A stretch of 64,000 bases of DNA from Emiliania huxleyi CCMP1516 (Eukaryota): assembly GCF_000372725.1 (NCBI RefSeq), contig NW_005201732.1:248001-312000 (forward strand). Direction: 5' to 3'. Both the position numbers and the translations under genes were made by a program. The notes under the pieces are model-generated. The model saw nothing but the letters and a program-made list of their open reading frames with translations, searched no databases and was not told the DNA's origin. This document shows, in pieces, positions 28,206 to 54,298 of this stretch. Numbering within the stretch: the first letter of the stretch is position 1; every line of letters starts with the position of its first letter.

Positions 28206-30474
28206 CTGAGCCCTGTGTGGTCTGACAGCCTGACAGCAAACCCCGGACAGCGCCTGACAGTGCCCGACAGTCTGACAGCACGTCTCTGACAGCCTGGCAG
28301 CAGAGCCTGACATCAGAGGCGTCCCGTCGCTGTCAGGCCCTAACGTGACAGCCTGACAGCTGCCCGACAGCCCGACAGCACACAGCGGCCTGACAGCAGC
28401 GCTGACAGCCCGACAGCCCGACCAGCCCGACAGCAGCACAGACCGTACTCAGGCCGTGCAGCCTCTTTCTTGTGTCCCATGAGGGTATAGCAAAACTATT
28501 ACATGCAAAGACATGTGTATGTGGTCCGCGCCTTCGATTCTGTGGAGTCCGCGCCAACCTCTGTGCACAGACCGGCTTCTTCAAGCAGCCGTGATTGCAC
28601 TTTCCTCTGGCTGACACCTATGTCGAGGGTGGCGCGTTGCTGGAGGAGCCGGGAGAGAAGGAGGATGATCCAAACGGCACACCCGATGCTGAGCCGGCCG
28701 AGCTGACCGCCATGGGCGCACAGGATGCTGCAGATGCCGAGGCCGTGCTGAACCAGCTGATGCGGACGGGGGCCAACGTGGCTCGTGGCGCCTCCAACCG
28801 GCGGCGAGGAGGGCAGCAGTAGCGCAGAGTTTTTTGAGGAGATCCGTAAGCTGCTGGCAGATTTCAACGTCTCCATCCAGGAGGAGTCAAAATTAGATAT
28901 TCTTACCTTCTTGCCCCCCTCTGAGACTGGAGACAGTCACCACAGATACATACGTCTGTGGGAGTGCCCCCCGCCCCCGCTTGCCCTGCCTGCGCAGGAT
29001 AGCGTGCCCCGATAGTGGCGACACATAGCGAGGGACACTGCGCAAGGAGGGGGTGCGTCGACTTCTTTTCTTTTTTTTTTGTCCTCTCGGGGGAATGTTC
29101 TCTCGGCGCCCATGGCCTTCTGAGGTTTCGTACTAATGACGTCCTTCTTGGCACTTCGGGCGTCGGTGTGTGCGTATCTGTGGTGTCTAATTCCCCCGGT
29201 ATGCTATATAGGTTTCGAACGGCGACCTCCCTTTCACTCGCACCGATTCCTTGCTGGATACCTTTCCGCAAGCGGAAGGTCGCCAGTTCGAAACCTGCTT
29301 GCCCCTTATATTTTTTTCACCTGAGCGGGCTCAATTTTGCTCTAGGTGCCTCCTACGATTCGATCCCGCGTTCTCAGGCAGTCGCCTGGTGCGTTGTTCG
29401 TTTTTGTCATGGGAGTGTTTTCTGCTTCGCGTCATCACTCGCTCCAGGAGGAGTCAAAGGATCGCAAGCTCCGCTTCCACGTCAAGCGGCTCATCAAGTC
29501 CCATCAGCAGCGAGGCGAGGATGTGGATGAGGAGCTCGACTTCTACATGGATGATGATGACGGTGACCACGCCCTTGCCGCCTGTCACACACACACATAA
29601 GACGTGCATTCTCATCTCTCCCTCTTCTCTTTCTCTCCGCAGTTGCGGTGCTCTTCACCATGGAGGACAGCTCCAAGGTCTTTGCCATTGGCAACATCGA
29701 GCAGGTGGCCGTCGCCGACGGCACGGTAGACGCGCGCCGCGCCACTGGCAGCTCGAGCGCAGAGTACCTGCGCCAGCTCTCGATGAGTCAGCGCAGCAAC
29801 GGGGTCTTCATCAACGACCCCAAGGGCCTCTTTATCCTCCGGTGGTACCGTGAGGTGAAGGGTGACGGGACCCCCCCAGACGACCCGCGCTACCAGAACA
29901 GAGCGTGCAAGTACTACAAGCTGACGAGCGACAACGATGGGGAGGCCTTCCGCTGGACCAGCAACTACCAGATCATCAGCAAGGTGTACCTGAAGAAGCA
30001 CTCCCCCCTGCCTCTCTGCTATTCTCTCAGTGCGGCAGACAAGAAGATGTGGTGACGTCCACCATGAAGAAGATGGTGGGACCGGAGGCAGAGTAGAGAC
30101 TAGAGTATGTGCAGCAGAGTCCTGCTGGTCTCCTCTTGATAATGTCATAAGTGTGGCTGGTGTGTGTCAGAGCCTGACAGCACCCCGACAGCACCACCTG
30201 ACAGCACCTGACAGCAACAGCCCAACGTCTGACAGCAGCAGCAGCCTGACAGCTCTGACAGGTCCGACAGCGTCTGACAGCAACACCCGACAGCTCCGAC
30301 AGCACCCGACAGCTACAGATCCCCTCTGATGTCAGACACGCACCCGACAGCACCCGACAGCACTGACAGCACCCGACAGCTGGTCTGACAGAGGCACCTG
30401 ACAATGCCTGACAGCTGCCCGACAGCCCGACAGATCACCTGACAGCACCTGACAGCCTGACAGCCAGGGCTCAG
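28206..30474. mobile_element. Non-autonomous TIR DNA transposon (8-bp TSD, hAT-like) with TGACAG/CGACAG subterminal arrays and internal coding remnants
   Basis: TIR CTGAGCCCTG / CAGGGCTCAG; TSD GCAGTAGC (28198-28205, 30475-30482); dozens of (C/T)GACAG motifs at 28221-28435 and 30175-30463. Confidence 0.85.
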
Positions 30475-31990
30475 GCAGTAGCGCTCGCAATCCTACATCT
30501 TGTAGGACTATGAGCGGCGGTGCTCACAATCGTACCAAAAAGATCCAAGGACTGCTAGTTTGCTAGCAGGCGCACAGGGGGCGCTCCCAATCGCTCCAGC
30601 CGCGAACGCTTGTGAGTGAGCGCTCAGCGCGCCGGGGGGGTCTCCTCAATCCAAACAGTGATCGCACCGATTGCGAGGGGACCCGCGGTCGCAATCCTAG
30701 AAGTCATAGGATTGTGGGCGGTGTCGCTCGTAATCGGCGAAAGTTCTAGGATTGCGAGCGCTACTGCTCGCAATCAGAGGCATGTTCCTAGGATTGTGAG
30801 CCAAGCTGCTCGCAACCCTAGAGTTTGCTCGGATTGCGAGCGCGCTGGTAGTAGTCGTAAGCGTCACCAGTCACCTTGTGAGCGGAGCTGCTCTTAGTCC
30901 TAGAAGACGTGTAGGATTGCGAGCGTGGATGCTCACAATCGCACAGAGATGCTACGATTGCGAGGAGTGCTGCTCACAATCCTTCGCGCTTCTAGGATTG
31001 AGAGCGAGGCTGCTCTCAATCCTAGCCTGGTAGAAAAGAAGGTTCGCCGCTACTGGAACTCGAGGCTATCTTCCGGGAGGCCGACGCCGTGCGCGACTCG
31101 GTGCTGCGCGGAGGGCGCGCGCCCGGCAGCAACACCGACCTCTTCGAGATTGTGCGCGAGGCGGTCAACCAGGTGAGCTGAGCGATGGTCAAGTCGGTGA
31201 GCTGAGCGATGGTCAAGTCGGTGAGCTGAGCGATGGTCAAGTTGGCGGAGCGAGGAGGCGTGATCGAGGCGTGCCGCCCCTCGACGTGATCGAGCTGCAG
31301 GCGGGAAGCTCGCTCGAATGCTCGCTCGCGACTCGCTCGCTGCTCGCGTGGGGCGTGGCTCTCGTGAGCATTCGTGCCGCGGCCATGTGTGGTATGGGAG
31401 GGGGTTGCGTGCACGGGACGGCGATGGAGGCGCCTGCAGCATGACCGCGGGGCGCGCGTGGCACGCCCGCGCACAGCAACGGGAGGTACCTCGGTAGCCC
31501 ACCGGTGGCGACGGCAGTGCGCCGTGGCGTAGTGGCGTCCGCAGCATGACAGCGGGGCGCTCATCGAGTGAGGCATATCGGGAGGAGGTCGTGGGGTGGG
31601 TGGGTGGGGGGGGGGGGGAGGCTGGGGCGTGACACGCGGCCTCGGGCGCGCTGCCGCCCTCAGCTCCGCTCCAATCAGAGGGAGTACGCACAAGGAATTC
31701 CTTAGAGAGATGTTAGAGGTGGGTTAAGGACTACCAGGTTAGAGACGTGGAGTGTGTGTGTGAGAGAGATTTTTATTAACCAACAAGAAATCACGACTCT
31801 TCTTGTGTGTGTGAGTTAGTATCTTCACAGATCACAGCTGTGTGAGCGCTGTAGGAGCGGTGCGACACCGATATCGTTCAAGGACAGTGCGGGTGTTAGT
31901 ATCTTGCCCGCTGCGGTTAGTTCGGCCTCGTGGTGCTTCGGACTCGTGGTCCTTTTCGGCCTCGTGGTCTTTCGGCCTCGTGGTGAGACG

Positions 31991-38529: not shown

Positions 38530-40204
38530 CGCGTAAGAGCAGCCTGCGGCGAGGTGGTCGTGATAACTCGAAACTTGTGGGACTGAGGACGCGGCGGAGC
38601 TCAGGAGGGATGCTCCAGGTGTTATTTTCAGTTAACCTGCCCCTGAGGTGCCCCTACCTACCTAGATCTACCTACCTACCTACCTACCCTACTTATGGGA
38701 AACTAAAAAAGAAATCATCGGACGGGTGAAGGTGGGGTACTACGCGTTGGTGTCCAGTCCGAGCCTGGCTGTTCTTCACCTTTCTACCTACCTACCTACT
38801 ACTATACCAACTAAAGTCATGGGTGGTGGTACTCTCCTGCAACCACAGTCCTTCCTGAGACATGACAGGCTGCCACTCTCAAGCCCTACAAGCACCAGAT
38901 CACCCACTTGGGGAGGGTTGATATCGTGATTTCGGTCGAATTTTTCTTTTTTTGAAAATTCGTGAAGAGAGGGAAAACCCCGACGGGAGGGCCCAGACCT
39001 ACCCTACCTACCCCGGCATGCTGGCCGCCCAAGCAAAAATAACATACACCTGCCGATATATACCTTCGGTCTTCGTTCTTTCTTTTTTTAGTTCTAGCGT
39101 GAAAAGAAAGACTTGCTCGAGCCCGTCCAGTACAGCTGTTCGCCAAGAGAACGACGCGACAGAGGAAGCGACGAGAGTGGGACGGCCGCGAGGTGGCACG
39201 AAGGTTGAAGCGAGAATCGGAGAGAGACTGCGAAGAGAGATAGGAAGAGGCAGACTCCCTAGGTGTACTACCTTGAGCTTGTCAAAGAGTACCATGAGGG
39301 CGAAGCAGAGGAGGTTGAGGCTCGGCTCGTTCTCGCCCGGGGGGAGGGACTTGGCGAGCGTGTCGAGGAGCCTAGTCGAGCTGCAGGTGGTGAGGGCTGT
39401 CTGCTTGGGGGGGGGGGGGGATCGTGCTGCAGCACTCACGTCGTGCGGTCGGCGCTCGGCTCGAGCCAGAAGCCGTTGTTGACGACCACCCCGTCGACCG
39501 GCCACGCGGCGGGGCAGCTCTGGTACGTGCGGCTGCCGTCGGGATCGGACCCCGGGGGCGGGCCCGCGCGCTCAAGGAGCTCAGTCGCCGTGAGGTCGCA
39601 GAGGGCCGGCACGCGCGCAAGTAGGATAGTCCTAGGGTGGGGACGACCGGGCATAGGACGACCGGATTAGCGGGGTGGGGGTGCGGGAGGGAGGGGGGGG
39701 GGGGGGGGGGGCCACATTTAGAACCCGTTGTTTTTGGACCCCCCTTTTTTTTTTACCCAAAAAGGGGGGCCCCACCCCCTTTTTTTTTCGGAGCCGGGCT
39801 CACGGTTCTAATCCCATTCAAACCCCCTAATAAAAGAAGGAGCGTTTGGCCCAACCCCTCCCCCCGTGGGGTGGGGGGTTCCCTTTTAGAGCTTTTTAAG
39901 GGTCTCCCCCCCCCCTTTCCTTCCCCCCCCTTCCCTTCCCCCCCCCCCCCCTTCTTTCCCCCCTCCCCCTTTTCCCTTTTTTCCCTCTTCTCAAGAATGT
40001 TTACGTTCGCGATCCCATTTCGTTTGCACCCCGAACTGATTTTGTTTAAAGTTAAGTTAGGTTCGTTTAAAGTTAGTTCCCTCCGGCATGTGCAACGAGT
40101 CGAGTTCGTCAAAAAGCGGGGGGGGGGGGGTGCGGCCAAAGAAATAAATTCTACGTCGGGGCCGTCCGTTCCGGGCTGTCTGTCTGCCAACCAAGAGCAT
40201 CGCG

Positions 40205-42290
40205 ATGAGGTTGCACAAGTGTCCGCTCTGTTCATTCACTCACACCTCGCTAAATATGATTGGCCAGCATAAAAGGTCGTGTACAGGCCAGACGGCCGGC
40301 AGCCTGGCCCGTCGTCAAGCATCCATGATGGGAATGCCGCCGTCATCGGATGCTGACGAGGAAGCTGCTGCGGCGTCTTTGTCTCCTGGCCCAGACTCGC
40401 TGCCGGGTGACGACGACACTCGTTCTCCACCAGGCAGTGGTGCAAGTGGCTGCAGCCACGACGCCACACCGATGGAGCAGGAGCCCTCGCCAGGTCAGGC
40501 TGTCGATGCGGCTGAAGCGGCGGCAGCTGCTGCTTCTGCCGAGAGCGCAAATGCGCGTGCGGCCACGCGTGAGCGGCAGCTAAGGCAGGTACTCAATGAT
40601 CCGAGGGCTCAGACGCCGAGAGTGATGTACAGTCTCGATGAATGGCATTGGATCCAGATGAGCAAGGACTCGCAGTGGAGCCGGAAGGATGCGGCTCGGC
40701 ATCTTACAAACGAGGCAGAGGTGCGACGAGCGGCTGGCCAGCCCTCTCTGCGGCTTTTTACGCAGGCAGACATCGACAGGCTGCTTGACGGCTACACTGC
40801 AGATCGTGGAATGGAGTTCTCTCCAACGGACGTGGTTTTTGCGGACGGCTCAAATCCTTTTCCGCGGATGGACGCCATCAAAGGCGCTGCAGGCACCGTC
40901 TGCTTGATTGCATATCAGCGATCCTCGTTGTCCGTGTTGCGGGACATGTTCACTGATCTGGCCTCTGACTCTGCAGAGCACCGGGAGGCGACGCCGTGCT
41001 TCCGCAATGGCGAACGTGTCTTTGGCGCGCCAATTACGGGCACCTGGCTCGAGGCCCAGCAGGCGCGCGTACGTGCGATCGATCCGAACGGCTACGTCTT
41101 TTCGTTTGACATATTTCACGACAAATCGGAAAAGTTCGGGCGCAGCTTTTACCCCGTCTACATTGTCAGCAACCACCTTTCCCTTGACGAGAAGCGCAAC
41201 CCAATCAACTGGCGCCTGCTTGCCCTCTGGCCGATTCTCCACTTTGACCAGTCGCCACCGCTCGGTGAGACGCAGAAGCGGCGGCAGCGGGCGAATTACA
41301 TCACAGCACTGCTCGACACCCTGCTGCGGACCGAGGAGCTCACCGACGCGATGCAGAACGGGATGGACATTGGCGACGCAAGAGTATGGCCGATTTTGCA
41401 GCTCTCTATCCTCGACCACCCGGAAAAGTGCCAAGATGCGAAGTGCAATCAGCTGCGGTGTGAGACTGCGGCACGTGCCCTCTCTAGATTTCCTCAAATT
41501 GATGGTGGTAGTGCCCTTCTAGGTGCGCCCGGTGCCGCGCGGCAAGTGGGGAGCTCTCGCACTACGAGGAGCCAGTGCTGATGCGTTGCACTGAGAGTCG
41601 AGCGCTTTTCAGATTCTACCCTGTATCAAGCCAGGGCGTAGTATTATCCTGCAATCGTGAACAGGCGAGGGAAGAATTTACCGCTTCACACGGCTTGCTG
41701 AGGCAGACTGGCGTCTAGCCGAACCAGGCGAGCGCGGCGAGAAGCGCGCCATCTTTGATGAGTGGCGACGAGTGCTCGCGGGGATCGGCTTGCACTACCG
41801 CGACAATACTAAATGGTGATGAATTTGCCACTCACCCAGCCCGGCGGCAGAGGTAAGTACGCTGAGCGCCTGTCGGCACACGCAGGCACCTCCCCGGCAG
41901 CCTAGCGTACCGATATGGGCTTCCGGTGCTCCACGTCGTCAAACAGGGCATCGGGAAGGATGCGGTGCGCAATGCGAATAGATGTAAACATCGCGCGCCA
42001 CCCATCTTTCCTTTCCAGGCAGTCGGATTTCTTCCCGGGGTTCGCGAAGTCTGTCGCACTCCTTCTCTGAGGGATCCGCCCGTCGCGTCCTCACACATGG
42101 TGGTCTCGGGCCGCTCAGATTCAGCTGACTCTGCGCGATCTCTACGAGTTCGTCGAACACCGCTCACCTGGCTCATGGGCGCGGCTGCTGGCGGCCTGGA
42201 ATGTGTGGGTGCGGACCAACCCGGGGAGCTTCCGCATTGTTCGCGGCCGAACCAAGAGGCAGGGCATCGAGGCTGTGTACGAGCCCAGCT
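40205..42290 (+). mobile_element. Plavaka-type (CACTA-related) transposase, N-terminal/catalytic part with C2H2-like finger; spliced and degenerate after ~41700
   Basis: CPLCSFTH...QHKRSC; NGERVFGAPITGTWLEAQQ...FDIFHDKS...FYPVYIV...LLALWP...WPILQLSILDHPEK...C..LR|CARC; later exon LPVLHVVKQG. Confidence 0.7.
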
Positions 42291-42614
42291 CACCAGCCAG
42301 CTCACCAGCTCGCCGCCGCGGCCAGGGCGCCTCCTGCGCCGCCCCGCGGCCCGCTCCGCGCGGTTCGGCCGCGGCCGAGGCCACGGCGGCCCTCCCCCAC
42401 CACCCGCCCACTCGACCGACCGACGAGCCTCACCCGCGAGCGCTCCCACCGCTCCACCACCCTCGCACGAACTTCGGACGGCGGCGGCGGCGGGCGTGAG
42501 TGACGGTGACACTCCGGTGCACCCTTCTGCGCGTGCCGCCTCGTCTCTCGCGCCCGATCCCTTGGCGTGCGCGCGTCGCCGCCACACCTCCGCCACGATT
42601 GGCTAGTGCCACTA

Positions 42615-43525
42615 CTAGTGACGCCGAAATCGGCGAGTGTCCTTGAACGACCTCTCCGATTCCGTCGGCGACGACGGCGGCGCCTGCTCTCGTAACTCAG
42701 CCAGCTCGCGTTCCCCCCTGTCACGATTCGCTTCGCCGCCGAGGTCGGACAACTGTGCGAGGTCTACAATCTCCGGACCCATCTCGTTCGACTGTGAGGT
42801 TTTTTTGCTCTTGCTCTGGCTCTCGCTCTTGCGCATTACTTCTCTCTGCGAGACCGCAGTGTTCTTGCACGCAGCCTTTGCCTTGCGAGCCGCCTCCGCA
42901 GGCACTGGTGCCTTGGCCGACGTTGGTGGCGTTGGCTTGGCGGGCTTTGGCGCCGCTGATGCCGTTTGCTTGGCGGACTTTGGCACCGTGGGCGCCACGG
43001 GCTTTGGCGCCGCTGATGGCGTCGGCTTGGGGTTAGGATCACTCGAACTGCTGGCACCGCCCGAGGTCTGCGCGGCGGGGTGCGCGCCGCCGCGCCGCAC
43101 AATCACAGGAGCCGTACCATTACGCTTCGGTGCCGCCTCGGCCTCCTCACCCGCCTTCCGCTTCGCAGGCACTGGTGCCTTGGCCGCCGTTGGTGGCGTT
43201 GGCTTGGCGGGCTTTGGCGCCGCTGATGACGTTTGCTTGGCGGACTTTGGCACCGTGGGCGCCACGGGCTTTGGCGCCGCTGATGGCGTCGGCTTGGCGG
43301 ACTTTGGCACCGTGGGCGCCACGGGCTTTGGCGCCGCTGATGGCGTCGGCTTGGGGTTGGGGTCACTCGAACTGCTGGCACCGCCCGAGGTCTGCGCGGC
43401 GGGGTGTGCGCCGCCGCGCCGCACATTCACAGGAGCCGTATCTTTACGCTTCTGTCCCGCCTTGGCCTCCTCACCCGCCTTCCGCTTCGCAGGCTCTGGT
43501 GCCTTGGCCGTCGTTGGTGGCGTTG
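42615..43525 (-). CDS. Lys/Ala/Pro-rich repetitive ORF (internal tandem duplications), truncated by assembly gap
   Basis: Repeated KPTPSAAPKPVAPTVPKSA and VRRGGAHPAAQTSGGASSSSDPNP blocks. Linkage to 44364-44831 across the N-gap is unverified. Confidence 0.45.
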
Positions 43526-44363
43526 NNNNNNNNNNNNNNNNNNNNNNNNNNNNNNNNNNNNNNNNNNNNNNNNNNNNNNNNNNNNNNNNNNNNNNNNNNN
43601 NNNNNNNNNNNNNNNNNNNNNNNNNNNNNNNNNNNNNNNNNNNNNNNNNNNNNNNNNNNNNNNNNNNNNNNNNNNNNNNNNNNNNNNNNNNNNNNNNNNN
43701 NNNNNNNNNNNNNNNNNNNNNNNNNNNNNNNNNNNNNNNNNNNNNNNNNNNNNNNNNNNNNNNNNNNNNNNNNNNNNNNNNNNNNNNNNNNNNNNNNNNN
43801 NNNNNNNNNNNNNNNNNNNNNNNNNNNNNNNNNNNNNNNNNNNNNNNNNNNNNNNNNNNNNNNNNNNNNNNNNNNNNNNNNNNNNNNNNNNNNNNNNNNN
43901 NNNNNNNNNNNNNNNNNNNNNNNNNNNNNNNNNNNNNNNNNNNNNNNNNNNNNNNNNNNNNNNNNNNNNNNNNNNNNNNNNNNNNNNNNNNNNNNNNNNN
44001 NNNNNNNNNNNNNNNNNNNNNNNNNNNNNNNNNNNNNNNNNNNNNNNNNNNNNNNNNNNNNNNNNNNNNNNNNNNNNNNNNNNNNNNNNNNNNNNNNNNN
44101 NNNNNNNNNNNNNNNNNNNNNNNNNNNNNNNNNNNNNNNNNNNNNNNNNNNNNNNNNNNNNNNNNNNNNNNNNNNNNNNNNNNNNNNNNNNNNNNNNNNN
44201 NNNNNNNNNNNNNNNNNNNNNNNNNNNNNNNNNNNNNNNNNNNNNNNNNNNNNNNNNNNNNNNNNNNNNNNNNNNNNNNNNNNNNNNNNNNNNNNNNNNN
44301 NNNNNNNNNNNNNNNNNNNNNNNNNNNNNNNNNNNNNNNNNNNNNNNNNNNNNNNNNNNNNNN
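43526..44363. other. Assembly gap
   Basis: Run of N. Confidence 1.
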
Positions 44364-44831
44364 GCAATTTAGCGCTGGAGGCGAGGGTGGAGGCGGCGTG
44401 GGCGGTGGCGAGGGCGGTGGTGTGGACGTGGTCGAGGGTGGAGTCGGTGTGGGTGCCGTCGCGTAGATAGCTGCCTCTGCTTGGCGAGCCGCCAACTCTG
44501 CCTGGCGAGCTGCCGCCGTCAGCCTCTCAAACGGTATCTCAGTCTCATTGTGTTTGTGGCTTAATACAGTTGCTATTAAACCAATGCCGTCATACGCAGC
44601 CGTCTTCATTTTCCCCAACCAATCGCCTGGATTTTTCCACACTAGCGCAATCGCAACACCAGCGACTAGAAGAAGAATGAGTTTGCCCGCTACATCCCAG
44701 ACCCACCATCTAGATGGTTGCTCCTTTGGAGGGGGAGAAGGCGCGGCCACTTGGTTAGATGCGCACATGTCTACATCGTAGACAGCGCACAAGTTGTTAG
44801 CCAGTGGGTCTACATTGTGCGCCTCAAACAT
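44364..44831 (-). CDS. Orphan membrane protein, low GC, runs into gap
   Basis: ATG at 44831; TM segment WWVWDVAGKLILLLVAGVAIALVW followed by a Pro/Thr-rich stalk. Confidence 0.5.
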
Positions 44832-44903
44832 CCTCAATTCCTTTTAATGTGAGCAAAAAAAATCATGTGTGGCCATGTGTGTATACCTATTCTTGCATTG
44901 AGG

Positions 44904-46232
44904 CTACGCTCGTGCACCCTCTGTCACTATTTCGAGTAGCGTCGCCACCGTATCCTTTTGCTCTTTCCACTCCTTCTTCCCTTCAGTAGCTGTTACTGTA
45001 CGAAATGGAGGGTCGTATTGAAACTCTCGCTCCATAGCCTTCTCAACGTCGTCTACAAATCCAGAATATGGCAGGAAAGCCACATCCGTGTGTGCCTCGG
45101 CGGCTTCCTCGAGGTAAACAAACAGACTTGTAAATAGATCGATTTCAATTAGGAACTTGCCCAGACATTTTGCAGTGTTTCGTTTGTTTTTCAACGCGGA
45201 GAATTCGTCAAACAACTTTCTTAGATTGCTGCCTGCCGCAGGCTTGGGAGAAGCACCGTCATACACCTTGACGTCTATCGTATCCGCTTGGCGTCGGGGC
45301 GAGATTTCTCCCTTTTCAGGCTTTATCAGAAAATTATTGCGCCACACTTGAGCAAGCGCGTGACTCACGCCATCCTCCTCTAGGTCCTCTATTCCAAAAC
45401 GATCTGCGGACAGACAGGGACCCAATCTGTAGGAGTGGGCTTTGTGTAGTGGGTAGGTAAACCGCAAGCGAGGATCCAGATACATTTCCTCTTTATTCTT
45501 GAATTGTTGGTTTAGTCTTGCCGTCTTCCTCTCAATCTGCTCATTCATAGCAGGTAGAATGCTCTGAGGGGCATAGCGCCTTTTCGCCCTAAGTTGGACA
45601 AGTTCCGCCAGCAGCAGCTTTCGTTCATTATTTTTTTCCACCTTCTTTGCGTTTAGTTTCAGGAAGTGCTCGTTAGCGCCTTTGACAGGCCTGCCCGTAC
45701 GAGCCGCTGGCCTATCAGCTGTGGCGTCTGCATTCGGAAGACCAGATCTCTTGTTGTCGTCTCTCGGCTTCCGCCTCATGCACTGATTCAACTCGACATA
45801 GCCTAGCAGGTATCGGATACTAGCCACGCGGAGCAGGTCCTCGCGGAGGTCCGAGACGAGCGACCGTGGAGGATTGCCACCAGCATCACTCAATCGCTTG
45901 TACTGTGACGCGTCCTGCAGCAATGCAAGCGTCGCGCTCTTGAGGGAGTCGAGAAGACTAGCGATACGCTCCCTGTCGATGCTGGATGCTTGGATATCAC
46001 AACCACCCGCATTCGCTGCTCCCAATGATGTTCTTAGCACCGAGTCCTTGAGGGGAGATGCCATCTTACGCATGAGCGTCTCGTCGAAGAGCACGCTCAA
46101 CGGATGCCCCTCTGGCAGCACGTGTTCTTCTTTGCTCAACAACTTGGGCAAATACCTCTCTGGCGTCTTCTGACGTACAGCATCTATTGCTTTGTGTCGC
46201 TTGCTTGACTGAGGAGTCGGAATGAGACTCAT
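44904..46232 (-). CDS. Orphan 442-aa basic protein, intronless, markedly lower GC than host genes
   Basis: Long uninterrupted ORF in AT-richer DNA, where chance ORFs of this length are unlikely; no family recognised. Confidence 0.65.
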   Translation of the reverse strand: MSLIPTPQSSKRHKAIDAVRQKTPERYLPKLLSKEEHVLPEGHPLSVLFDETLMRKMASPLKDSVLRTSLGAANAGGCDIQASSIDRERIASLLDSLKSATLALLQDASQYKRLSDAGGNPPRSLVSDLREDLLRVASIRYLLGYVELNQCMRRKPRDDNKRSGLPNADATADRPAARTGRPVKGANEHFLKLNAKKVEKNNERKLLLAELVQLRAKRRYAPQSILPAMNEQIERKTARLNQQFKNKEEMYLDPRLRFTYPLHKAHSYRLGPCLSADRFGIEDLEEDGVSHALAQVWRNNFLIKPEKGEISPRRQADTIDVKVYDGASPKPAAGSNLRKLFDEFSALKNKRNTAKCLGKFLIEIDLFTSLFVYLEEAAEAHTDVAFLPYSGFVDDVEKAMEREFQYDPPFRTVTATEGKKEWKEQKDTVATLLEIVTEGARA

Positions 46233-46440
46233 TTATTCATAGGTAGGAAAAAAGTCATGTGTGCTCATGTGTGAATTCAGAATGCTCTCGCGATGTGTGA
46301 ATTCAGAATGCTCTCGCGATGTCCGTGTCGTCGAGAGCGGACGCGCTAGCCGCGCCACACCCTGAGGCTCGCCGGCCCCGAGGCCTCGAGGCACTGGCAC
46401 TGAGGCTCGCCCGCCCCGAGGCCCATGGGTCCAATATAAG

Positions 46441-46655
46441 CAAAATTCAGAAATTCAGTTTTTTTGGGAGAAATTCTTCAGAAAATCTTGGCCCCTCGGG
46501 GACCCTGCCCTGGGACCCAAAAAATTATATTTCAAATTTTTCCCAAAAAAACTGAATTTCTGAATTCTTGCGTTTATATTGGCACCTGCGACCAGACCCT
46601 ACAAAAAATATTCCAACAATTTCCCCCAAAAAACTGAATTTCTGAATTCTTGTGA
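46441..46655. repeat. AT-rich inverted/direct repeat set
   Basis: AAATTCAGAAATTCAGTTTTTTTGGGAGAAATT (46443-) is inverted relative to two copies of AATTT(T)CCC(C)AAAAAA(A)CTGAATTTCTGAATTCTTG (~46535, ~46618). Confidence 0.85.
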
Positions 46656-47554
46656 CCCGGACCCTCCTTCAAATCATATATTCCTCCTCTCTCCTCCCTC
46701 CCGCCTCTGCCCCGGCCGCCTCTCTCCTCCCTGCCTTCTCTCTCCTCTCAGCCTTCTTCTCTCTCCCCTGGCCGCCTCTCGCCCTCGCCCGCCTCCCGCG
46801 CCGCGACCGCCCTCACGACTGACGCCCTCACCGCCGCTCTCCCAGGCGGCTGTGCAAGTGCTCGGTGCCTGAGCTGTAGAGGCCGCATACAGACTCGCCT
46901 CATGACTTCGTTCATGTTTAAAGCATAGCTCCAGCAGAATAGTTTGTTTGAAACTCATCAAGACTTGGAGCAACTAGCGGCGAGCGCTCGGATGGGTCGG
47001 GACGTGCCTATGCAGGGCACGGAGAGAGACCCAGTCAGAGAGAGAGAGAGAGAGAGAGGAGAGAGTCACTTGGAGCATTTGGAGTGCTTTCGCGCAAATT
47101 CTTTCTAGAGAAAAGCGAAACGGATGGATGCCGCCCGCACATATGGCGGCTGGGTGACGCGAGCGGTACCATATGGTGGGGTGGTCTGACACCGGAGGCC
47201 GCCGCGCGGCCGGCTGCCGCCTCCAGCCGCCTCAGAGCGGTCATCGATGACGTGAGGCCGCGCCTTGCGAGAACAGTCCAGTCAGTCGACACCGCTTCAA
47301 GACTTGCAAACTTAGAGGTTTGAGTCCTCCCACCCCCTCCTCCACCGCCGCCGCCTCCACCTTCTTCCCACCCCCTCCTCCACCGCCCTCGCCACCTCCG
47401 CGCCCATACCCGGCCGAGCACGCGCGCCGCCGCCGCCTCCATCTCTCCCAACCCTGTCCTCCACCACGCCACCTCGCCTCACCACTCTTCCTTACCCACT
47501 CCGTCGCCCTTGCCCCCCCCCCCCCCCCCCCCCTCCCCCCACAGGACAGAAAGA

Positions 47555-47845
47555 ATGACACCCGCGGAGGTGGTCGCACAGTCCGCTCGTTGCGTAAACG
47601 AGAAGCTTCGAGGTGGACGCAGCGTTGAATCGTATCGCAACGCCATGACCATCCAGTTACAGCGAGAACTTGGCGCTAACCTCCAGGTAAAGCCGAGAAT
47701 TGATGTTCTGTATGATGGACATGTACTACGATGTGTATTACCGGACTTTGTCATCACTGGACCACGCGGCTTCATTCTTCAGATCAGTGTACCTCCTGCC
47801 TATGTCTATCCGGGTGTCTGTGACAAGTCGGACGCTATTGATTGT
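47555..47845 (+). CDS. GxxExxY-family PD-(D/E)XK nuclease-like domain
   Basis: SARCVNEKLRGGRSVESYRNAMTIQL...VKPRIDVLYDGHVLRCVLPDFVI...FILQI resembles the GxxExxY family layout; motif is degenerate. Confidence 0.55.
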
Positions 47846-49725
47846 GCGCATCGATTGCCGACGCGCTGCAGCAGCAGCAGGGCGCGCTGCAGCGGCTGCT
47901 GCCGTCGGACGAGCTGCCCTCGCTCTCGCCCGACAGCGAGATTCACGACCGCGGACTCCTCGTGGACGCGGACTTTGCTCGAGCGGCCGGCGTGACGCAC
48001 GACCCGAGCGAGCCGCTATCCGTAGTCATCAGCTCGCTCGGCCCGGCGCAGCCACCCACCTTGCGCGACCCGCCTGGCATGCAGCTCGGCTCCGCCTACG
48101 GGCAGAGCCGTGCCGGCGCTGCCGCTCTCGCTGACGCTTCGACCTCCTTATCCCTCTCCGCCATTCCCGCTCCCGCTCTCTCCTGCTCCACGCCTGCCTC
48201 GGCGACGCCCTCGCCCCCCGGCTTCGCCGCATCCCCGTCCGCTGCCGAGCAGCCGATCGCCGAGTCCGCCGGTTTCCCCGTCATCCTCCGTCCTGCTTCG
48301 GAGCCGTCGCTGGGCGGACCGTCGGGGACGCAGCTGCAGCACACGACGCCCGGCCAGGAGGTCTTCTCTCTCGCAGCCCGCTTTCCCACCCTCGTCGTCA
48401 ACTACGTCGGCGCTAGAGAGCGACGCGAGGAGTTCTGCGCCGCGATCCTCGAGGCCAAGGAGATGGCGCGCGGCCACGGCTCGGCGCCAGCGTGGCGGAG
48501 CGATTTGGTTCCAACAGCGGGGGCAGACGCGTCCGAGGAGGAGAAGAAGCGCGCGGTGAAGGATAAGAATGCCTTCAACAGCAAGGTGTCCGCCTTCAAG
48601 CTGCTGCTCGACGCGATTGTCCTCGACTCGGGCGCGCTGAAGCCAGGCGGCGTCGACTACCCGTCCATCACCCGCTGCATCCGCCTCCTCTCCGGCACGA
48701 CGGGCGCAAAGAAGTGGGGGGAGGAGGTGCGCAAAAGCTACGAGAACGGCGCGGACGGGTACGGCGAGAAGTCCGCTGCGCGCGCTGCATATGAGGGTGT
48801 GCGGGGAGGGTCCGAGGAGGAGAGGCTCGCTGCGGCTCGCTCCTTCCGCGATGCGGTGCTGGATGCGCTCCGTGAGGAGCCGTCGCTGTCGTCCTTCGCA
48901 GACGCGGGCGGCGCGCCGGGCGCCGCGTCTTCATCGCTGACGCCGCTCAAGCGTGGGCGAGATGAGTCGGTGCTGGCGCGGTTCCTCGCCGTTGATCCCG
49001 GCGCGAGCGAGCGCTCCGCCACGGGAGTGGCTGACTTCACCTTCGCCGACGGCCTCTGCTCCTCCATCCGCGCCACCTCCTTCATGCCGCGCGGGACGCA
49101 CGTCCAGAAGAAGAAGCGGGTGGCGACGGAGATCTCTGCACTGCTCGACGCCGTCAAGCCGGTCTGCGTCTTTCTGGAGGAGTGCTATCCCCCCGTGGGT
49201 GGGTATAAGTACAAGCTGATGGAGCTGAACCACGCGCTTCGCTTTGCCGTCGTGGAGGCGTGCGAGGAGAGGGACGTGCCGTGCTACATGGTGCACTACC
49301 CCCACTGGCCCACCGCCCCCCAACCCTCCGTCTCACTCTCGTCACAGTCACCCCACCCCTCCCCCCGCCAGGTGAACGCGTCGACGTGGCTTTCGCACAT
49401 CGGCGTGAGCTACCCCAGTGGTGCTAAAGACGAGGCCAAGAAGAAGTTGGTACTTGTCGGCGCGGAGCCGAAGGGGGGAGGGGAGAGGGGGGGGCTGCTA
49501 TCGGCACTCGGCCTGCGGCACGACTCCATCCCGTTCGACATGAAGCGACACGATGCAGCCGACGCCGTCGCGATCGGGCTGGCCGGGCTGGCTGGCAAGC
49601 GAGACGGCTACAAGAAGGAGAAGCACGTCGTCACGATCAAGCCCCGCCTGCCTGAGGGCAGCTCTGAGCCGCCGCGTCTCGGCTCCCCCTCACAACTCGA
49701 ATTTGTCGAGCTCTCACAGCTCTAG
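47842..49725 (+). CDS. Protein with C-terminal RuvC-type Holliday junction resolvase domain (intron ~49291-49370)
   Basis: RFLAVDPG...TGVA (D), VFLEE (E), VNASTW, KKKLV, HDAADAVAIG (D..D): all four RuvC catalytic acidic positions are present. Confidence 0.75.
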   Translation: MCASIADALQQQQGALQRLLPSDELPSLSPDSEIHDRGLLVDADFARAAGVTHDPSEPLSVVISSLGPAQPPTLRDPPGMQLGSAYGQSRAGAAALADASTSLSLSAIPAPALSCSTPASATPSPPGFAASPSAAEQPIAESAGFPVILRPASEPSLGGPSGTQLQHTTPGQEVFSLAARFPTLVVNYVGARERREEFCAAILEAKEMARGHGSAPAWRSDLVPTAGADASEEEKKRAVKDKNAFNSKVSAFKLLLDAIVLDSGALKPGGVDYPSITRCIRLLSGTTGAKKWGEEVRKSYENGADGYGEKSAARAAYEGVRGGSEEERLAAARSFRDAVLDALREEPSLSSFADAGGAPGAASSSLTPLKRGRDESVLARFLAVDPGASERSATGVADFTFADGLCSSIRATSFMPRGTHVQKKKRVATEISALLDAVKPVCVFLEECYPPVGGYKYKLMELNHALRFAVVEACEERDVPCYMVHYPHWPTAPQPSVSLSSQSPHPSPRQVNASTWLSHIGVSYPSGAKDEAKKKLVLVGAEPKGGGERGGLLSALGLRHDSIPFDMKRHDAADAVAIGLAGLAGKRDGYKKEKHVVTIKPRLPEGSSEPPRLGSPSQLEFVELSQL

Positions 49726-50989
49726 AGTGTCCGGTACCCCCCCTAACGTGCTGTCATGTTCTGGGGGGCAGCTAGTACGTGCATACGATACGGCTCTGTA
49801 AGGTCGGGACGTATTCTCACCGATGTGGCTCGGTGCGCCTACCTTCCACAGAGTGGATTCTGCAGGACCGTACCCGTGGTACGGCGCGCCGGGCGCCGGG
49901 CGGCGCGCCCGATTCGGTCCATGTTGACCATGTCGGTCGAACCCACCCCGGGCCGCGAATTTGGCAAGTGTATTGAAAACGACTTTTTGATGATGAAATA
50001 CATACATGCAGTGTAGCGCCTGCCGCTACTGTACGCGCGGCGCGCATCCCCCTCTCTCGCCCTCCACGGCCGCTCAGCGGCGCAACGCAAAATGTCTCCC
50101 CGTCGGCCGTCACGCGAGCAAGCGGGCGACTGTGGGCGACGGAGCCGCTGCGCCGTCGGGGCGACGGCGGCGGCGGCGATGGCGGCAGCGGGTCGGGCGG
50201 CTGCGGCGGCGGTGGCGGTGGTAAGGGTGGCGGCAGCGCGGGCGGGGCAGCGCGGGCGGCGGCGGCGGAGGCGGTGGGGGTGGCGGGTGACGGTGGAGGC
50301 GGCGAGGGAGGCGGCGGGCTCGGAGGCGGCGGCGAGGGCTGCGGCGGCAAGGGCGGCGGCGGCAAGGGCGGCGGCGGCGAGGGCGGCGGCGGCGGCGAGG
50401 GGGGAGGCGGCAGGCTCCGATGCGTGGCGAGGGCGACGGCGGCGAGGAGGCGGCGGTGACGCGGAGGCGGACTGGGCGGCGGCGACGACGGCGGTGGTGG
50501 GCTTGGTGGGGGGCGGGCTGGGGAGGCAAAGCGACAGCGGGGGTGCGACGGCGGAGGAGGCGCCGGCAGAGGGGGCGGTGGCGGGCTCGGTGGCGGCCGG
50601 TGGTCGCCACGGTGGTGGCAAAAAAGAATGAGGCCGGCGCGGTGTGATGGCGCGGCCGTTGGGCGCGCCCCGGGTCCCTCTCCGAACAGCGACAGGCAGC
50701 GAATTCTGGGGGCTTGGTGACGCGTGCGCTGCGTGGCGATTACAGCGGCGAGTTTTGGAGGGCGCGCTGGCGCGGCGCGCAGGCCACTCAGAGGCTGATG
50801 TTGGGGTCGGAAGGCTGGCGGGAGAGGAGGCGGGGAGAGTCTGGGGCGACCGGTAGTCGATGCGAGGGTGCGGTGGCAGTCTGGCGAGCGTTGGGAGGCA
50901 GGACTGCTCTGACCAGCCACGCGCGGCGACCTGGTGAGCCAAGACCGGTACACCCCCCTGTGCTCGGCTCGGAGCTTCCGCCCACAGTG

Positions 50990-51575
50990 AGCATGTGCAC
51001 TGCTCTTGACAACTACAACGTGCTGCGCTACCTCCGCGTACTCGTACGCAGCCGCCTTGCCGAGGACGCTGGCGGCGGCGGCAATGCCGACGCAACTGCT
51101 GTGGACCGCTTCCTCGCGGCGCTGATGGCGTGGCTCAAGCTCTTCACGAAGGTGGAGAAGTCTCAGAGCGACCACGCTCGGCTCCGCGGCCTCAGGGCGA
51201 TCTACATGCGCTGCGGCAAGGCAGCCTTTGGCGGAAGCTTCGGCGAGACTTCAAAAAATCACGACGCATGCTGATCCACCACAGCCTTTGCCTCCTTAGT
51301 CTTGCCGCGCCGCTGCTGGTGGGGGGGGAGGCGGCGCTCGGATCGTCGTAAGCAGCGCAACTTCGCGCCCAGAGCTCGTGGCGCGAGCAGATGCATGCGC
51401 GGTGCTGAGCACCTGATTCTCCAGAAGGGGCAGGCCGCAAGGAGAGACCTCTCGCGAGCACTCAAGGCAGGGCCAGGGGGTGCCGAGAGATCACACCGCC
51501 TTCGTGCTCCCCCCTCGGTGCCCGGTGCACCCGACACACGGTGTCTCCTGAGACGCTTCCCTGTCCAAGTATAGT
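50990..51575 (+). pseudogene. Probable C-terminal part of the Plavaka-type transposase, degenerate
   Basis: [17 protein letters not shown]...[12 protein letters not shown]...[14 protein letters not shown] resembles the Plavaka/CACTA helical region and K.H motif; in-frame stops follow. Confidence 0.45.
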
Positions 51576-52162
51576 AAAATGTGATCTAGTATGCAATTGC
51601 CATCTCAGAACAGCTGTGCATCTATAGATGCTTGTGGCGTCTAAGATGGAACGCGTAACACGAAAAGACACGGCGCGGCTATCTCCAGGACAGCCGTCGC
51701 ATCCTAGAATGCCCTGTGTACCCGAGACACATGGTATCTTTGAGATGAAAAGTGCGTCCTAGAATGCGTTTTTGCATTCTAGGACGCATCGGTTAAACAA
51801 AGATGGGGGGGTCGCCCCCCCAGACGCCGCATGGCCAATCGCTTCCCCACCCCGGTCACTCGCGTCACTCTCCGCCCCCTTCCCCTCCATCCGTTGCCTC
51901 TCGTGGCTGGCAGCTCACGCTGACCGAAGCCCAAATGCTCGACCCACCCCCCCTCCCCCCTCAAGTAAGTGTGTCTGCCGTGCCAGCGTCTGAACAGAGA
52001 GCGACTTCGCGGATTGAAAGAGCAGTGAACAGAGAAAGATAGGAAGAGGCAGACGCGTATGCAGTTTTTCTTTCCCCCTGTGTTAGTGCCAGTGCGCGCC
52101 AGTCCCGTGCCCAGTGTTGTGCGAGGGAGTGGTTTTTGTTTCTAAAATTCTTTTCCCGCCAG

Positions 52163-53211
52163 CCACTCGGGGAAAAGGTGTGTAGACCCCAAATCGGGTC
52201 CGGACTTCGGACCCGATTACGCTGCCGCCTCGCGCGCGCCGCTGCTGCCCTCGCCGGCAGCCGCCGCGGTCGCAGTGCCATCGTGCGGACTGGCGGTCGA
52301 CTCGCCACATCGATTTCAACTCACGCGACGCGCTCGGCCTCCGCTGGCGGCTGCCGCAAGAGCGGCTGGCTCACGGCAGCGTCTCGCCGGTTGCCGGATA
52401 GGAGAGTACAGAACGTCTGGAGTGTAACTGTGTACGTGAGATCGGTTTTGATAACAAGCACGGTCGATCCGTCAAAGCGATACACTCGTTCCTATCTCGC
52501 TGGAGGGCTGGCACGGAGCTCTGTGCCGACAAACAGGAAGAGCCGAGCGGCAAGAAGGGCTCGATGGGGAGCGAGAACCGTCAAACGTGCTCACGGAGGT
52601 TTCGGAAGTCCACCCTGATGCGGTCGGTTCCCCCCCGGTTTGAACGCGCAGCTCGCAAGACTCGTCGAGCACTCGCAGCCTCTCTGCGCCTCTCATGCTG
52701 CCGCTCTGCGGGATGTTCAGTCTTTCCGGAAGATATCGTCGAGTTTTGGAAGCTGCGCGGTCAAACCTGGGGGGAAACAAGAGCGTCACGACGGACTTCA
52801 GGTTACACCTGAAGCTCTTCTGACGGTTCTCGCTCCCCATCGAGCCCTTCTTGCCGCTCGGCTCTTCCTGTTTGTCGGCACAAAGCTCCGTGCCAGCCCT
52901 CCAGCGAGATAGGAACGAGTGTATCGCTTTGACGGATCGACCGTGCTTGTTATCAAAACCGATCTCACGTACACAGTTACACTCCAGACGTTCTGTACTC
53001 TCCTATCCGGCAACCGGCGAGACGCTGCCGTGAGCCAGCCGCTCTTGCGGCAGCCGCCAGCGGAGGCCGAGCGCGTCGCGTATCGATCGAGCTCGCGATC
53101 CGGGCCGTGGAGCCCACGAGGAAGACTTCGTCTGCTGGGACGGAGTCCCGACGCTCGCTGCGTCCGCCGGAACTGGGGTCTGCACACCTTTCGTGGCCGC
53201 GTCCCGCAGTG
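52163..53211. repeat. ~1-kb foldback (long inverted repeat)
   Basis: 52323-52582 is a near-perfect reverse complement of 52821-53081. The spacer and outer flanks are also imperfectly complementary (AAAGGTGTGTAGACCCC / GGGGTCTGCACACCTTT). Confidence 0.95.
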
Positions 53212-53287: not shown

Positions 53288-54298
53288 ATGCTCCTCACCG
53301 ACCTGTCTGCTGACAATCTCGAGGAAGTTGTGCGCCACTGCGACGCGAGCGCCTTCCTCAACCTGCAGGCGGCGTGCCACACGTTCCAAGATTTGGACGC
53401 CCGCCTGGTGCAGCGCGTCTGGCGGGAAATCGCGCTCGCCGCGATGGACAAGCCTTGGCTCGCACAGGACGCGGCTACGGCCGTCGACTGGAAGCGCCGC
53501 TACAAGGTCCTGATGCGCGCTGGCTGCCGCCTCAAGCTGCCTACGGTGTCCATCGAGGAGTTGCGCCGCGAGTACACCTTCCATCTCGACGGCCCCTATG
53601 TCGACGGCCCCTACCAACCCGCGATCGCCTCCCTGACTGGCACCGCTCGCGCAGCCAATTCGGACGCGGAGGCCGACGAAGGCCATCATGAAAGTGTCAC
53701 TGATGCCATCTTCCTCGATTTCAAAGGCGACGCAAGCGGAATGGTTGTACGACCCGCCTATGCTCAACGACACATTCGACGGGATGTCCAGGTGTACATG
53801 CTACACGTGCGCCGCGCTTCGGACGGCAGAGTGGCGCACCTTGCCACATTTGATCTGAGGGAGAGGGACGAGATCTACCACGAGAACCATTCATGCACCG
53901 TGTTTCGCAGCGGCCAGGCCGGCAGCGGAAGCCCAGATTGCCCGTGGCACTCGATTCCAGGCACACATTACTCGGCCCGTTTCCCAGCGCCACCGTGGCT
54001 TGGCATGGTGGAGGAGGCGGGCAATCGCGTCGAAGCCCGAGATGGCAACGCCCGCCTGAAGGTGACGGTGTGGCCGATTGAGTCTGCCCAAGAGCAGCCT
54101 GAGGCTGAGAGCGAGAGCGAGGGCGAGGAGCCCCGCTTCTGCTGCTGGGGCGAGAAGGGCTGCAGCATTGAGCTGAAGAAGCACACGTGCGACGTGCCTT
54201 ACATTGACCACACGAACTTCATGGGCGCGGCGAGCGCCACATTCCCGATCACTCTCGGCGAGTTCCCGGCGGTGCTGCGCGCGCTCGAGTGGGCCTAG
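53288..54298 (+). CDS. F-box-like protein, intronless
   Basis: MLLTDLSADNLEEVVRHCDASAFLNLQAACHTF...VWREI...DWKRRY fits the F-box pattern; C-terminus unknown. Confidence 0.6.
   Translation: MLLTDLSADNLEEVVRHCDASAFLNLQAACHTFQDLDARLVQRVWREIALAAMDKPWLAQDAATAVDWKRRYKVLMRAGCRLKLPTVSIEELRREYTFHLDGPYVDGPYQPAIASLTGTARAANSDAEADEGHHESVTDAIFLDFKGDASGMVVRPAYAQRHIRRDVQVYMLHVRRASDGRVAHLATFDLRERDEIYHENHSCTVFRSGQAGSGSPDCPWHSIPGTHYSARFPAPPWLGMVEEAGNRVEARDGNARLKVTVWPIESAQEQPEAESESEGEEPRFCCWGEKGCSIELKKHTCDVPYIDHTNFMGAASATFPITLGEFPAVLRALEWA

What the first reader, a model, noticed from the sequence alone, without database searches (positions are those of the whole stretch)
40205..51575. Plavaka-type transposase split by ~8 kb of nuclease-bearing, virus-like cargo
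Seen: transposase motifs run in order on the + strand up to LHVVKQG (~41930-41950). What looks like the downstream helical/K.H region resumes only at ~50990 on the same strand. Between them (~42.6-50.9 kb) lie low-GC intronless orphans, an AT-rich inverted repeat and GxxExxY/RuvC nuclease ORFs. Inference: either an uncharacterised mobile or viral element inserted into the transposase, or a large composite element carrying recombination nucleases.
Basis: partly seen in the sequence, partly recalled or inferred. Interest (0 to 1): 0.75.

Follow-up and report, generated by a model that had tools for sequence, protein, structure and literature searches.

The report
Site-specific jumping element carrying RuvC resolvase
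In a coccolithophore alga, an 8.7-kb piece of DNA that also sits at other places in related genomes interrupts a Plavaka transposase gene at a 5-base motif repeated at both its ends; it carries a RuvC-type Holliday-junction nuclease gene but no recognisable enzyme for moving itself, so it is likely a defective copy of an unclassified element that integrates by site-specific recombination.

Summary
Confirmed, with corrected edges. The Plavaka-type transposase is cut inside a coding exon: the insert is 42278-50957, with CTGTG on both sides (42273-42277, 50958-50962). Other runs hold the empty form, 42277 joined to 50963 in frame, and the two halves align in order to intact Plavaka-like proteins. 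The insert is itself mobile: 8 contigs from 4 of 4 runs join its left end to unrelated flanks, all diverging at 42271-42273. So CTGTG is a fixed target or core, not a random duplication. The ends carry offset, imperfect inverted repeats. Cargo: a spliced RuvC-fold nuclease with intact acidic motifs, a truncated GxxExxY-like frame, two low-GC orphan frames and an AT-rich palindrome. No recombinase, HUH, DDE or capsid domain was detected in 58 frames. A breakpoint at 47852 suggests about 2 kb or more is missing from this copy. Best reading: a non-autonomous copy of a Crypton/Starship-like target-specific element (insertion about 0.95; recombinase mechanism about 0.45). 'Virus-like' is unsupported so far, and misassembly is unlikely. 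The database protein EMIHUDRAFT_108988 is a chimeric gene model of this locus.

The parts
40205..41575 (+). Plavaka-type transposase, first large frame; an intron likely begins near 41457
   Evidence: Pfam Plavaka E 4e-7, above cut-off. Paralogues P0009/P0012/P0015 diverge right after NQLRC.
41893..41976 (+). Transposase piece holding LHVVKQG
   Evidence: Aligns to P0040 residues 204-231 (E 0.009 against a small database).
42071..42277 (+). Transposase exon, part left of the insertion
   Evidence: Aligns to P0040 241-276 (1 of 2000 shuffles) and P0041 275-295 (3 of 2000).
42273..42277 (+). Left copy of the 5-bp direct repeat CTGTG (target or core)
   Evidence: Read from the sequence. Present once at the empty site; other-locus flanks diverge at 42271-42273.
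42278..50957 (.). Inserted mobile element, 8,680 bp as assembled (includes 838 N)
   Evidence: Empty-site contigs; other flanks.
42275..42322 (+). Left subterminal imperfect inverted repeat
   Evidence: Score 31; 0 of 2000 shuffles and 2 of 1922 random window pairs reach it.
42618..44831 (-). Orphan frame: hydrophobic stretch followed by Pro/Ala/Lys-rich repeats; likely one gene across the N-gap
   Evidence: An X2 contig links 44364 to the repeat unit in frame, 26-letter side only. No Pfam hit. A similar stretch (94%, read antisense) is in P0034 on another, 2.13-Mb contig of the same named strain.
43526..44363 (.). Assembly gap (838 N) inside the tandem repeats of that frame
44904..46232 (-). 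442-aa low-GC orphan frame, predicted mostly helical at low confidence
   Evidence: Only near-identical relatives (P0019 93%; P0025 full length). No Pfam, PHROG, NCBIfam or PADLOC hit. Model pLDDT 41, fold search uninformative.
46431..46652 (.). AT-rich inverted repeat (46431-46583) plus a third partial arm copy (46595-46652)
   Evidence: spanned by an 1081-nt X1 contig.
47555..47852 (+). GxxExxY-like PD-(D/E)xK frame, cut short at 47852; no E-x-K visible after the Asp
   Evidence: TIGR04256 E 5e-4 and PF13366 E 3e-3, both below cut-off. An X9 contig continues with other sequence past 47852.
47852..47852 (.). Internal breakpoint, likely a deletion in this copy
   Evidence: X9 contig with 1995 other letters upstream, X2 contig with 225, and an X1 contig that starts exactly here; GC steps from 52% to 68%.
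47857..49725 (+). Frame with a C-terminal RuvC-type resolvase domain (from about 48950), intron 49291-49371
   Evidence: Spliced form hits PHROG 159, E 9e-10. Atlas: feature score 0.94, TM 0.67/0.77 to bacterial RuvC models. Acidic motifs at 48988, 49171 and 49549 are kept in P0053.
50916..50953 (-). Right subterminal imperfect inverted repeat, ending 4 C short of the direct repeat
50958..50962 (+). Right copy of the direct repeat CTGTG
   Evidence: Read from the sequence; junction spanned by an X1 contig, 50891-51332, with 0 differences.
50963..51265 (+). Transposase exon, part right of the insertion, ending at the K.H motif
   Evidence: top hit (E 7e-6) among 1283 window frames for a profile of two intact homologues.

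Best explanation
An 8.7-kb multicopy mobile element sits inside a Plavaka transposase exon at a CTGTG motif that is now repeated at both of its ends, and it likely integrated by site-specific recombination of a circular intermediate, driven by a recombinase predicted to be encoded by fuller copies because none is detectable here. Shown: the insertion, the empty form, other flanks for the left end, the shared start at the motif, and the RuvC-fold gene. Inferred: a tyrosine-type recombinase crossing a CTGTG core shared by element and target, as in Cryptons, Starships and phaeovirus insertions. The predicted excision junction would read as 6-bp inverted arms around a 6-bp spacer, with a second 9-bp arm further out. 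Also inferred: this copy lost about 2 kb or more at 47852 and is non-autonomous. The role of the RuvC protein (resolving Holliday or cruciform intermediates) is untested. Odds: insertion of a mobile element about 0.95; target-specific about 0.85; tyrosine-recombinase route about 0.45.
For: Empty site: X9 contig joins 42272 to 50958 (a 93-97% paralogue). X3 and X5 contigs (98% alike) leave at 42277 with 30 letters equal to 50963-50992. X2 and X6 contigs also leave at 42277, but their loose letters were not shown. The joined frame aligns through the junction to P0040 and P0041 (0 of 2000 shuffles each), while read-through into the insert does not (1710 and 1707 of 2000). Other sites: 8 contigs in 4 of 4 runs (X2 3, X3 2, X5 2, X6 1) carry unrelated flanks ending at 42271-42273; the listed pieces differ from the window by at most 1 letter over their first 41-43 bases. 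The 5-mer occurs at 0.13% of sites per strand in the window. Subterminal inverted repeat beyond chance. Analogues: CryptonS has 5-6-bp terminal direct repeats (PMC3212892). Starship direct repeats arise from a terminus-target match (PMC10104507). Phaeovirus attP has inverted repeats around a short core (PMC13236599).
Against: No tyrosine-recombinase domain in 58 of 58 frames of 75 aa or more; spliced or very divergent genes could be missed. Only one empty/filled pair is known, and right-hand flanks of other copies were not seen. The 6-bp arms alone are weak (200 of 5000 random joins do as well), and the spacer of the predicted circle is not in register with the best arms of the empty site. The repeat is also compatible with a fixed target duplication by a DDE enzyme, or with HUH-type insertion. 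The single difference in the flank contigs could not be placed and might lie in the motif. Some flank contigs of different runs may be the same locus, and three runs (X2, X3, X5) belong to one study. No circle junction appeared among the listed joints (382 joints were not shown).
Confidence: 0.5

Rival explanations
1. A HUH (rolling-circle or peel-and-paste) element of the Replitron, IS605 or Helitron2 kind that inserts in one orientation next to a fixed 5-bp target and ends in the same 5 bases.
For: Non-palindromic target, short terminal direct repeat and asymmetric inverted repeats. Replitrons have short terminal direct repeats and likely occur in haptophytes (PMC10288648 passages). Helitron2 has asymmetric TIRs (PMC3627910 passages).
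Against: No HUH, Rep or helicase hit. No TTTT target as in Chlamydomonas Helitron2. End hairpins were folded but not tested against shuffles.
Confidence: 0.2
2. A deletion remnant of an integrating algal virus (mriyavirus/NDDV-, PLV- or phaeovirus-like) whose ends and a few genes stay mobile.
For: RuvC plus a PD-(D/E)xK nuclease is part of the mriyavirus core, and haptophytes host such viruses (PMC11253617; 10.1101/2022.07.28.501842). Two closely packed low-GC frames share an upstream motif. The internal AT-rich palindrome recalls the phaeovirus telRL site (PMC13236599). Atlas neighbours of the RuvC domain and of the 442-aa orphan are mostly phage clusters; the orphan's scores are below 0.9, a lead only.
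Against: No capsid, packaging ATPase, polymerase or helicase hit. 0 confirmed matches in 6 of 6 answered IMG/VR scans and none in phage records. The RuvC gene has host-like GC and a spliceosomal intron. No long TIRs.
Confidence: 0.15
3. A non-autonomous DDE cut-and-paste transposon with a fixed target duplication (CTG or CTGTG) and an asymmetric end, carrying captured genes.
For: Both ends have TGTAC/GTACA near the terminus. CTG is a pseudo-palindromic 3-mer; fixed targets of this kind are recalled for PIF/Harbinger and come from no call. DDE families are abundant in another haptophyte (PMC5963040 passages).
Against: The inverted repeats are offset by 4-5 C at the right end and are imperfect close to the ends. 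All 8 other left ends lack a matching G run. No transposase in the insert.
Confidence: 0.12
4. Assembly artefact, or cargo of one large Plavaka element.
For: An 838-N gap and a branch point at 47852. No listed contig spans the whole stretch, and no long reads were available.
Against: X1 contigs span both junctions (40198-42803 and 50891-51332). The two junctions rebuild the empty site exactly. The insert's left end occurs away from Plavaka, and Plavaka occurs without the insert.
Confidence: 0.03

Closest known systems
Cryptons, especially CryptonS of oomycetes and diatoms (PMC3212892, passages)
   Same: A 5-bp direct repeat at both termini, constant among copies at the end seen; extra cargo genes.
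   Different: No tyrosine recombinase detected in this copy. Subterminal inverted repeats are present, whereas Cryptons are described as lacking TIRs. RuvC and GxxExxY cargo.
Starships of fungi (PMC10104507, passages)
   Same: Direct repeat created by a match between element end and target, together with terminal inverted repeats; target preference; cargo.
   Different: Haptophyte host, about 9 kb, no captain (DUF3435) hit.
Phaeovirus endogenous elements of Ectocarpus (PMC13236599, passages)
   Same: Short core present once at the empty site and at both junctions; inverted repeats around the core in the predicted circle; an internal palindrome.
   Different: Far smaller than a giant-virus genome; no viral hallmark gene, integrase or telomere resolvase detected; GC-rich arms.
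Replitrons (PMC10288648, passages)
   Same: Short terminal direct repeats; multicopy; target preference in the founding family.
   Different: No HUH Rep detected. Here one of the two repeat copies is already present in the target.
Plavaka transposons (PMC12730594, passages and part 2 of 7), for the interrupted host gene
   Same: Pfam Plavaka domain and colinear downstream motifs.
   Different: Termini (TGT..ACA or CATCA..TGATG) were not located; haptophyte host; gene disrupted.

Membership tests
Plavaka (interrupted gene) | Plavaka transposase domain | tested here: met
   PF18759 29.9 bits, cut-off 26.3; downstream parts colinear with P0040/P0041, which hit Plavaka.
Plavaka (interrupted gene) | C(2)C and H(3-4)H motifs of the CMCT clade | tested here: inconclusive
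   CxxC appears only if an intron near 41457-41523 is assumed. The first His aligns with P0041; the second is unresolved. No RNA reads cover it (X16).
Plavaka (interrupted gene) | TIRs TGT..ACA or CATCA..TGATG with a 2-3-bp TSD | tested here: inconclusive
   No inverted match longer than 10 nt between 38900-40210 and 51270-52950; the ends may lie further out.
Crypton | 4-6-bp direct repeats at both termini | tested here: met
   CTGTG at 42273-42277 and 50958-50962; constant left start in 8 contigs.
Crypton | Tyrosine recombinase gene | tested here: not met
   None in 58 frames of this copy; the part missing at 47852 could not be read.
Crypton | No terminal inverted repeats | tested here: not met
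   Imperfect subterminal inverted repeat is present.
Crypton | Circular intermediate (proposed for the family) | not testable with these tools
   No raw DNA reads or long reads were offered.
Starship | Direct repeat from terminus-target match, plus TIR | tested here: met
   One empty/filled pair.
Starship | Captain recombinase (DUF3435) | tested here: not met
   No hit.
Replitron / Helitron2 | HUH Rep or RepHel gene | tested here: not met
   No hit in this copy.
Replitron / Helitron2 | Terminal hairpins and asymmetric TIRs | tested here: inconclusive
   Asymmetric inverted repeat present; end folds not tested against shuffles.
Endogenous virus (mriyavirus, PLV, phaeovirus) | Major capsid protein, packaging ATPase, replication genes | tested here: not met
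   No Pfam hit in 58 frames; no such PHROG hit in 9 main frames.
Endogenous virus (mriyavirus, PLV, phaeovirus) | RuvC-like resolvase and PD-(D/E)xK nuclease (mriyavirus core) | tested here: inconclusive
   RuvC fold present; PD-(D/E)xK weak and truncated; kinship to the viral proteins not shown.
RuvC resolvase (PF02075-like) | RuvC fold with the three acidic motifs | tested here: met
   PHROG 159 E 9e-10; Atlas TM 0.67/0.77 between predicted models; D, E and DxxD motifs aligned with P0053. Pfam itself gave no hit.
RuvC resolvase (PF02075-like) | Cleavage of four-way junctions | not testable with these tools
   Needs a biochemical assay.

The most novel reading that the evidence does not exclude
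A new class of eukaryotic integrative element that brings its own RuvC Holliday-junction resolvase. It pairs a 5-bp core with the target, makes one strand exchange and lets RuvC finish the crossover, or RuvC cuts cruciforms at the AT-rich palindrome of a replicating circular form. It would be a virus-derived, cargo-carrying counterpart of Starships in coccolithophores.
Probability: 0.15. Interest if true: 0.85.

Novelty: new variant of a known kind. Interest (0 to 1): 0.6.

Why it matters
About 31% of the E. huxleyi genome was reported as uncategorised repeats (PMC5963040, passage). This locus gives base-exact ends, a target motif, an empty allele and strain-level presence/absence for one such family, so its mobilising enzyme can be found directly from long-read assemblies. 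A nuclear mobile element with a spliced bacterial/phage-type RuvC gene did not come up in my searches. If the resolvase takes part in integration, that would be a new route of transposition. It also flags a database error: EMIHUDRAFT_108988 fuses Plavaka, antisense repeat and RuvC sequence into one artificial protein.

Tried and rejected
IMG/VR scans with the transposase, RuvC domain, 442-aa frame, GxxExxY frame, P0053 and a right-end DNA pattern gave 0 confirmed loci. GTDB genomes with the RuvC 5' part: 0. JGI metagenomes with the RuvC frame: 1 locus of 410 pattern matches (L001). Phage records with P0003: none. PDB sequence searches: none. Rfam over 39500-53200: none. PADLOC: 0 of 6. Both single-sequence structure predictions were unusable (pLDDT 33 and 41), and the viral fold search on the second had no match at E 0.001 or better. 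Polyadenylated raw reads of X16 (about 3% of the run read) showed no depth over the transposase or the low-GC frames. That run may lack the element, so this is not evidence on expression. X9 is only guessed to be RNA; it has almost no cover over 44868-46523, which is not used as evidence. Contig depths at the insert's left end were higher than on the closest empty Plavaka copy (X2 112 vs 24, X3 91 vs 51, X5 40-59 vs 34, X6 15 vs 9), but the tool warns that these are not copy numbers. Plavaka TIRs were not found. A random 5-bp TSD was rejected because other loci start at the same motif. A Fanzor/TnpB reading of the RuvC frame was set aside: the profile and Atlas hits were to crossover-junction RuvC, and no zinc-finger motif is visible. 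A Plavaka-RuvC fusion protein (P0003) was rejected as a gene-model chimera. Five look-ups in earlier findings returned nothing.
Full report
Setting. The window is GC-rich eukaryotic DNA with ordinary host genes (VDE and LRR; HSP90, RCC1, ASF1). Its RuvC frame is identical, apart from one 27-residue intron, to the named record EMIHUDRAFT_108988 of Emiliania huxleyi CCMP1516 (P0003), so the window is coccolithophore DNA. That record begins with the Plavaka frame, continues with the antisense reading of a repeat gene and ends in the RuvC frame. It is a chimeric gene model of this locus, not a fusion protein.

The transposase is real and is split. 40205-41575 hits Pfam Plavaka above its cut-off. 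A search of all cluster representatives with P0003 returned 21 proteins. Two of them, P0040 and P0041, are longer Plavaka-like proteins. The window's pieces align to them in order: 41893-41976, 42071-42277 and 50963-51265. Read as one frame across the junction, the last two score 100 and 127 against P0040 and P0041, with 0 of 2000 shuffles reaching either. The same frame read on into the insert is no better than chance (1710 and 1707 of 2000). A profile of the two homologues ranks the 50648-51271 frame first, the 42071 frame second and the LHVVKQG frame third among 1283 window frames; only the first is strong (E 7e-6, 0.011, 0.9). The break therefore lies at 42277/50963, inside an exon.

Empty site. 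Of 16 runs listed, 7 were laid. A 1899-nt contig of X9 (RNA by guess) joins 42272 directly to 50958; it is a 93-97% paralogue. In one search, contigs of X3 and X5 at 98% identity leave the window at 42277, and their next 30 letters equal 50963-50992 (checked). Contigs of X2 and X6 leave at the same base, but their loose letters were among the rows not shown. A second, more distant Plavaka copy in X2 and X5 leaves at 42276 and differs in the fifth base of the motif. The window has CTGTG at 42273-42277 and again at 50958-50962; the empty form has it once. Whether these empty copies are the same locus or sister copies is not known. X1, which may be the source of the assembly and is not independent support, spans both junctions (40198-42803, 3 differences; 50891-51332, 0 differences).

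The insert is a mobile family. In one search, 8 contigs from 4 of 4 runs join the insert's left end to flanks unlike the window: X2 3, X3 2, X5 2, X6 1. Seven are in the loose-end table and one in the piece table; 15 loose-end rows and 26 pieces were not shown. The three flanks given by single contigs are unlike each other. All diverge from the window at 42271-42273, so they share the CTGTG start. The four pieces listed with differences have at most 1 other letter over 41-43 bases, which I could not place. Three of the four runs come from one study, and some flanks may be shared loci, so the firm minimum is three other loci in one run. A random duplication would not give this pattern: the 5-mer occurs at 0.13% of sites per strand. 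P0034 shows a 94% copy of the repeat gene on another, 2.13-Mb contig of the named strain. L001 holds a 92% RuvC paralogue behind different upstream DNA, with a SAP-domain frame, so the RuvC module also occurs in another context. Right-hand flanks of other copies were not seen.

Ends. The ends share an imperfect inverted repeat (score 31; 0 of 2000 shuffles, 2 of 1922 random pairs) that is offset by four C at the right. If the two direct repeats recombined, the junction would have perfect 6-bp inverted arms around a 6-bp spacer, with a 9-bp match further out. The 6-bp arms alone are reached by 200 of 5000 random joins, and the spacer overlaps only the first two bases of the repeat. This is suggestive, not proof.

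Cargo. (a) A minus-strand frame from 44831, with a hydrophobic stretch, that likely runs through the 838-N gap into Pro/Ala/Lys repeats. An X2 contig links the two sides in frame, with only 26 letters on the short side. (b) A 442-aa orphan at 52% GC with only near-identical relatives; folding and fold search were uninformative. Both frames are preceded by a similar ACACATGA-T-rich motif. (c) An AT-rich palindrome, z -9.0. (d) A GxxExxY-like frame below family cut-offs, cut at 47852. (e) A frame ending in a RuvC domain: PHROG 159 E 4e-5 unspliced and 9e-10 spliced, Atlas feature score 0.94 and TM 0.67/0.77 to bacterial RuvC models, with three acidic motifs shared with the distant P0053. It has 68% GC and an 81-nt intron that is absent from an X9 contig. 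At 47852, contigs of X9 and X2 carry other sequence upstream of the RuvC part (1995 and 225 letters), an X9 contig carries other sequence downstream of the GxxExxY part, and an X1 contig begins exactly there. The simplest reading is a deletion in this copy; an insertion in the others, or a local chimera, is not excluded. Pfam on all 58 stop-free frames of 75 aa or more found only the weak PD-(D/E)xK hit.

Mechanism. Shown: insertion into an exon, a pre-existing CTGTG target, other loci with the same left start, and no detectable mobilising enzyme in this copy. Inferred: target-specific integration through a shared core, most likely by a tyrosine recombinase acting on a circle and supplied by fuller copies. 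The pattern matches CryptonS (PMC3212892), Starships (PMC10104507) and phaeovirus insertions (PMC13236599). HUH-type insertion, a viral remnant and a fixed-target DDE element remain open, with the odds given above. The viral and recombinase readings overlap in part. The element fails the membership tests for all named families because the defining enzyme is not in this copy. It works like a Crypton or Starship in its ends, but is not filed as one.

Literature seen. Passages found by term in PMC3212892, PMC10288648, PMC10104507, PMC3627910, PMC11253617, 10.1101/2022.07.28.501842, PMC5963040, PMC13236599 and PMC12220804; passages plus part 2 of 7 of PMC12730594. No supplement was read; the Plavaka data files of PMC12730594 might bear on the host element. 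Searches for a prior description: Emiliania huxleyi + transposon + Plavaka, 0 papers; 0; listings only; no title or abstract start described this element. Repbase and subscription journals were not searchable, so a prior entry cannot be excluded.

Verdict. A real nested insertion whose inner element is more interesting than the split transposase. New variant of a known kind, interest 0.6.

Noticed in passing
window 27404-31049: Nested inverted repeats (28044-28205 with 30760-30923, 91%; 27404-27509 with 30942-31049, 78%) around frames with no Pfam hit and a tract of short CTGACAG repeats; likely another non-autonomous TIR element.
   Followed up: partly
window 52323-53081: 346-nt inverted repeat, 92% complementary with a 67-nt loop, just upstream of an orphan frame (53291-54295, no Pfam hit).
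   Followed up: no
window 13586-13671, 18410-18874, 22009-22227, 39146-39263, 6861-6915: A family of related 50-200-nt repeats in both orientations; 18410-22227 looks like a TIR element of about 3.8 kb.
   Followed up: no
window 46246-46330 and 44857-44890: A shared motif upstream of the two low-GC minus-strand frames, plus a 26-nt tandem duplication at 46266-46322; possible element-specific promoter.
   Followed up: partly
L001 475-1716 (-) and 2141-2675 (+): A RuvC paralogue (92% nt) sits head to head with a SAP-domain frame, with upstream DNA unlike the window; the RuvC module may be shuffled among elements.
   Followed up: partly
P0040 and P0041: Two unnamed Plavaka-like transposases carry C-terminal ankyrin repeats.
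   Followed up: no
P0003 (EMIHUDRAFT_108988) and P0034 (EMIHUDRAFT_448194): Public gene models that read the insert's repeat gene antisense; the first also fuses Plavaka to RuvC. Both are likely annotation artefacts.
   Followed up: yes
window 52077-52130: A very high-depth short repeat with sharp loose ends on both sides in the laid runs; possibly a small dispersed element.
   Followed up: no
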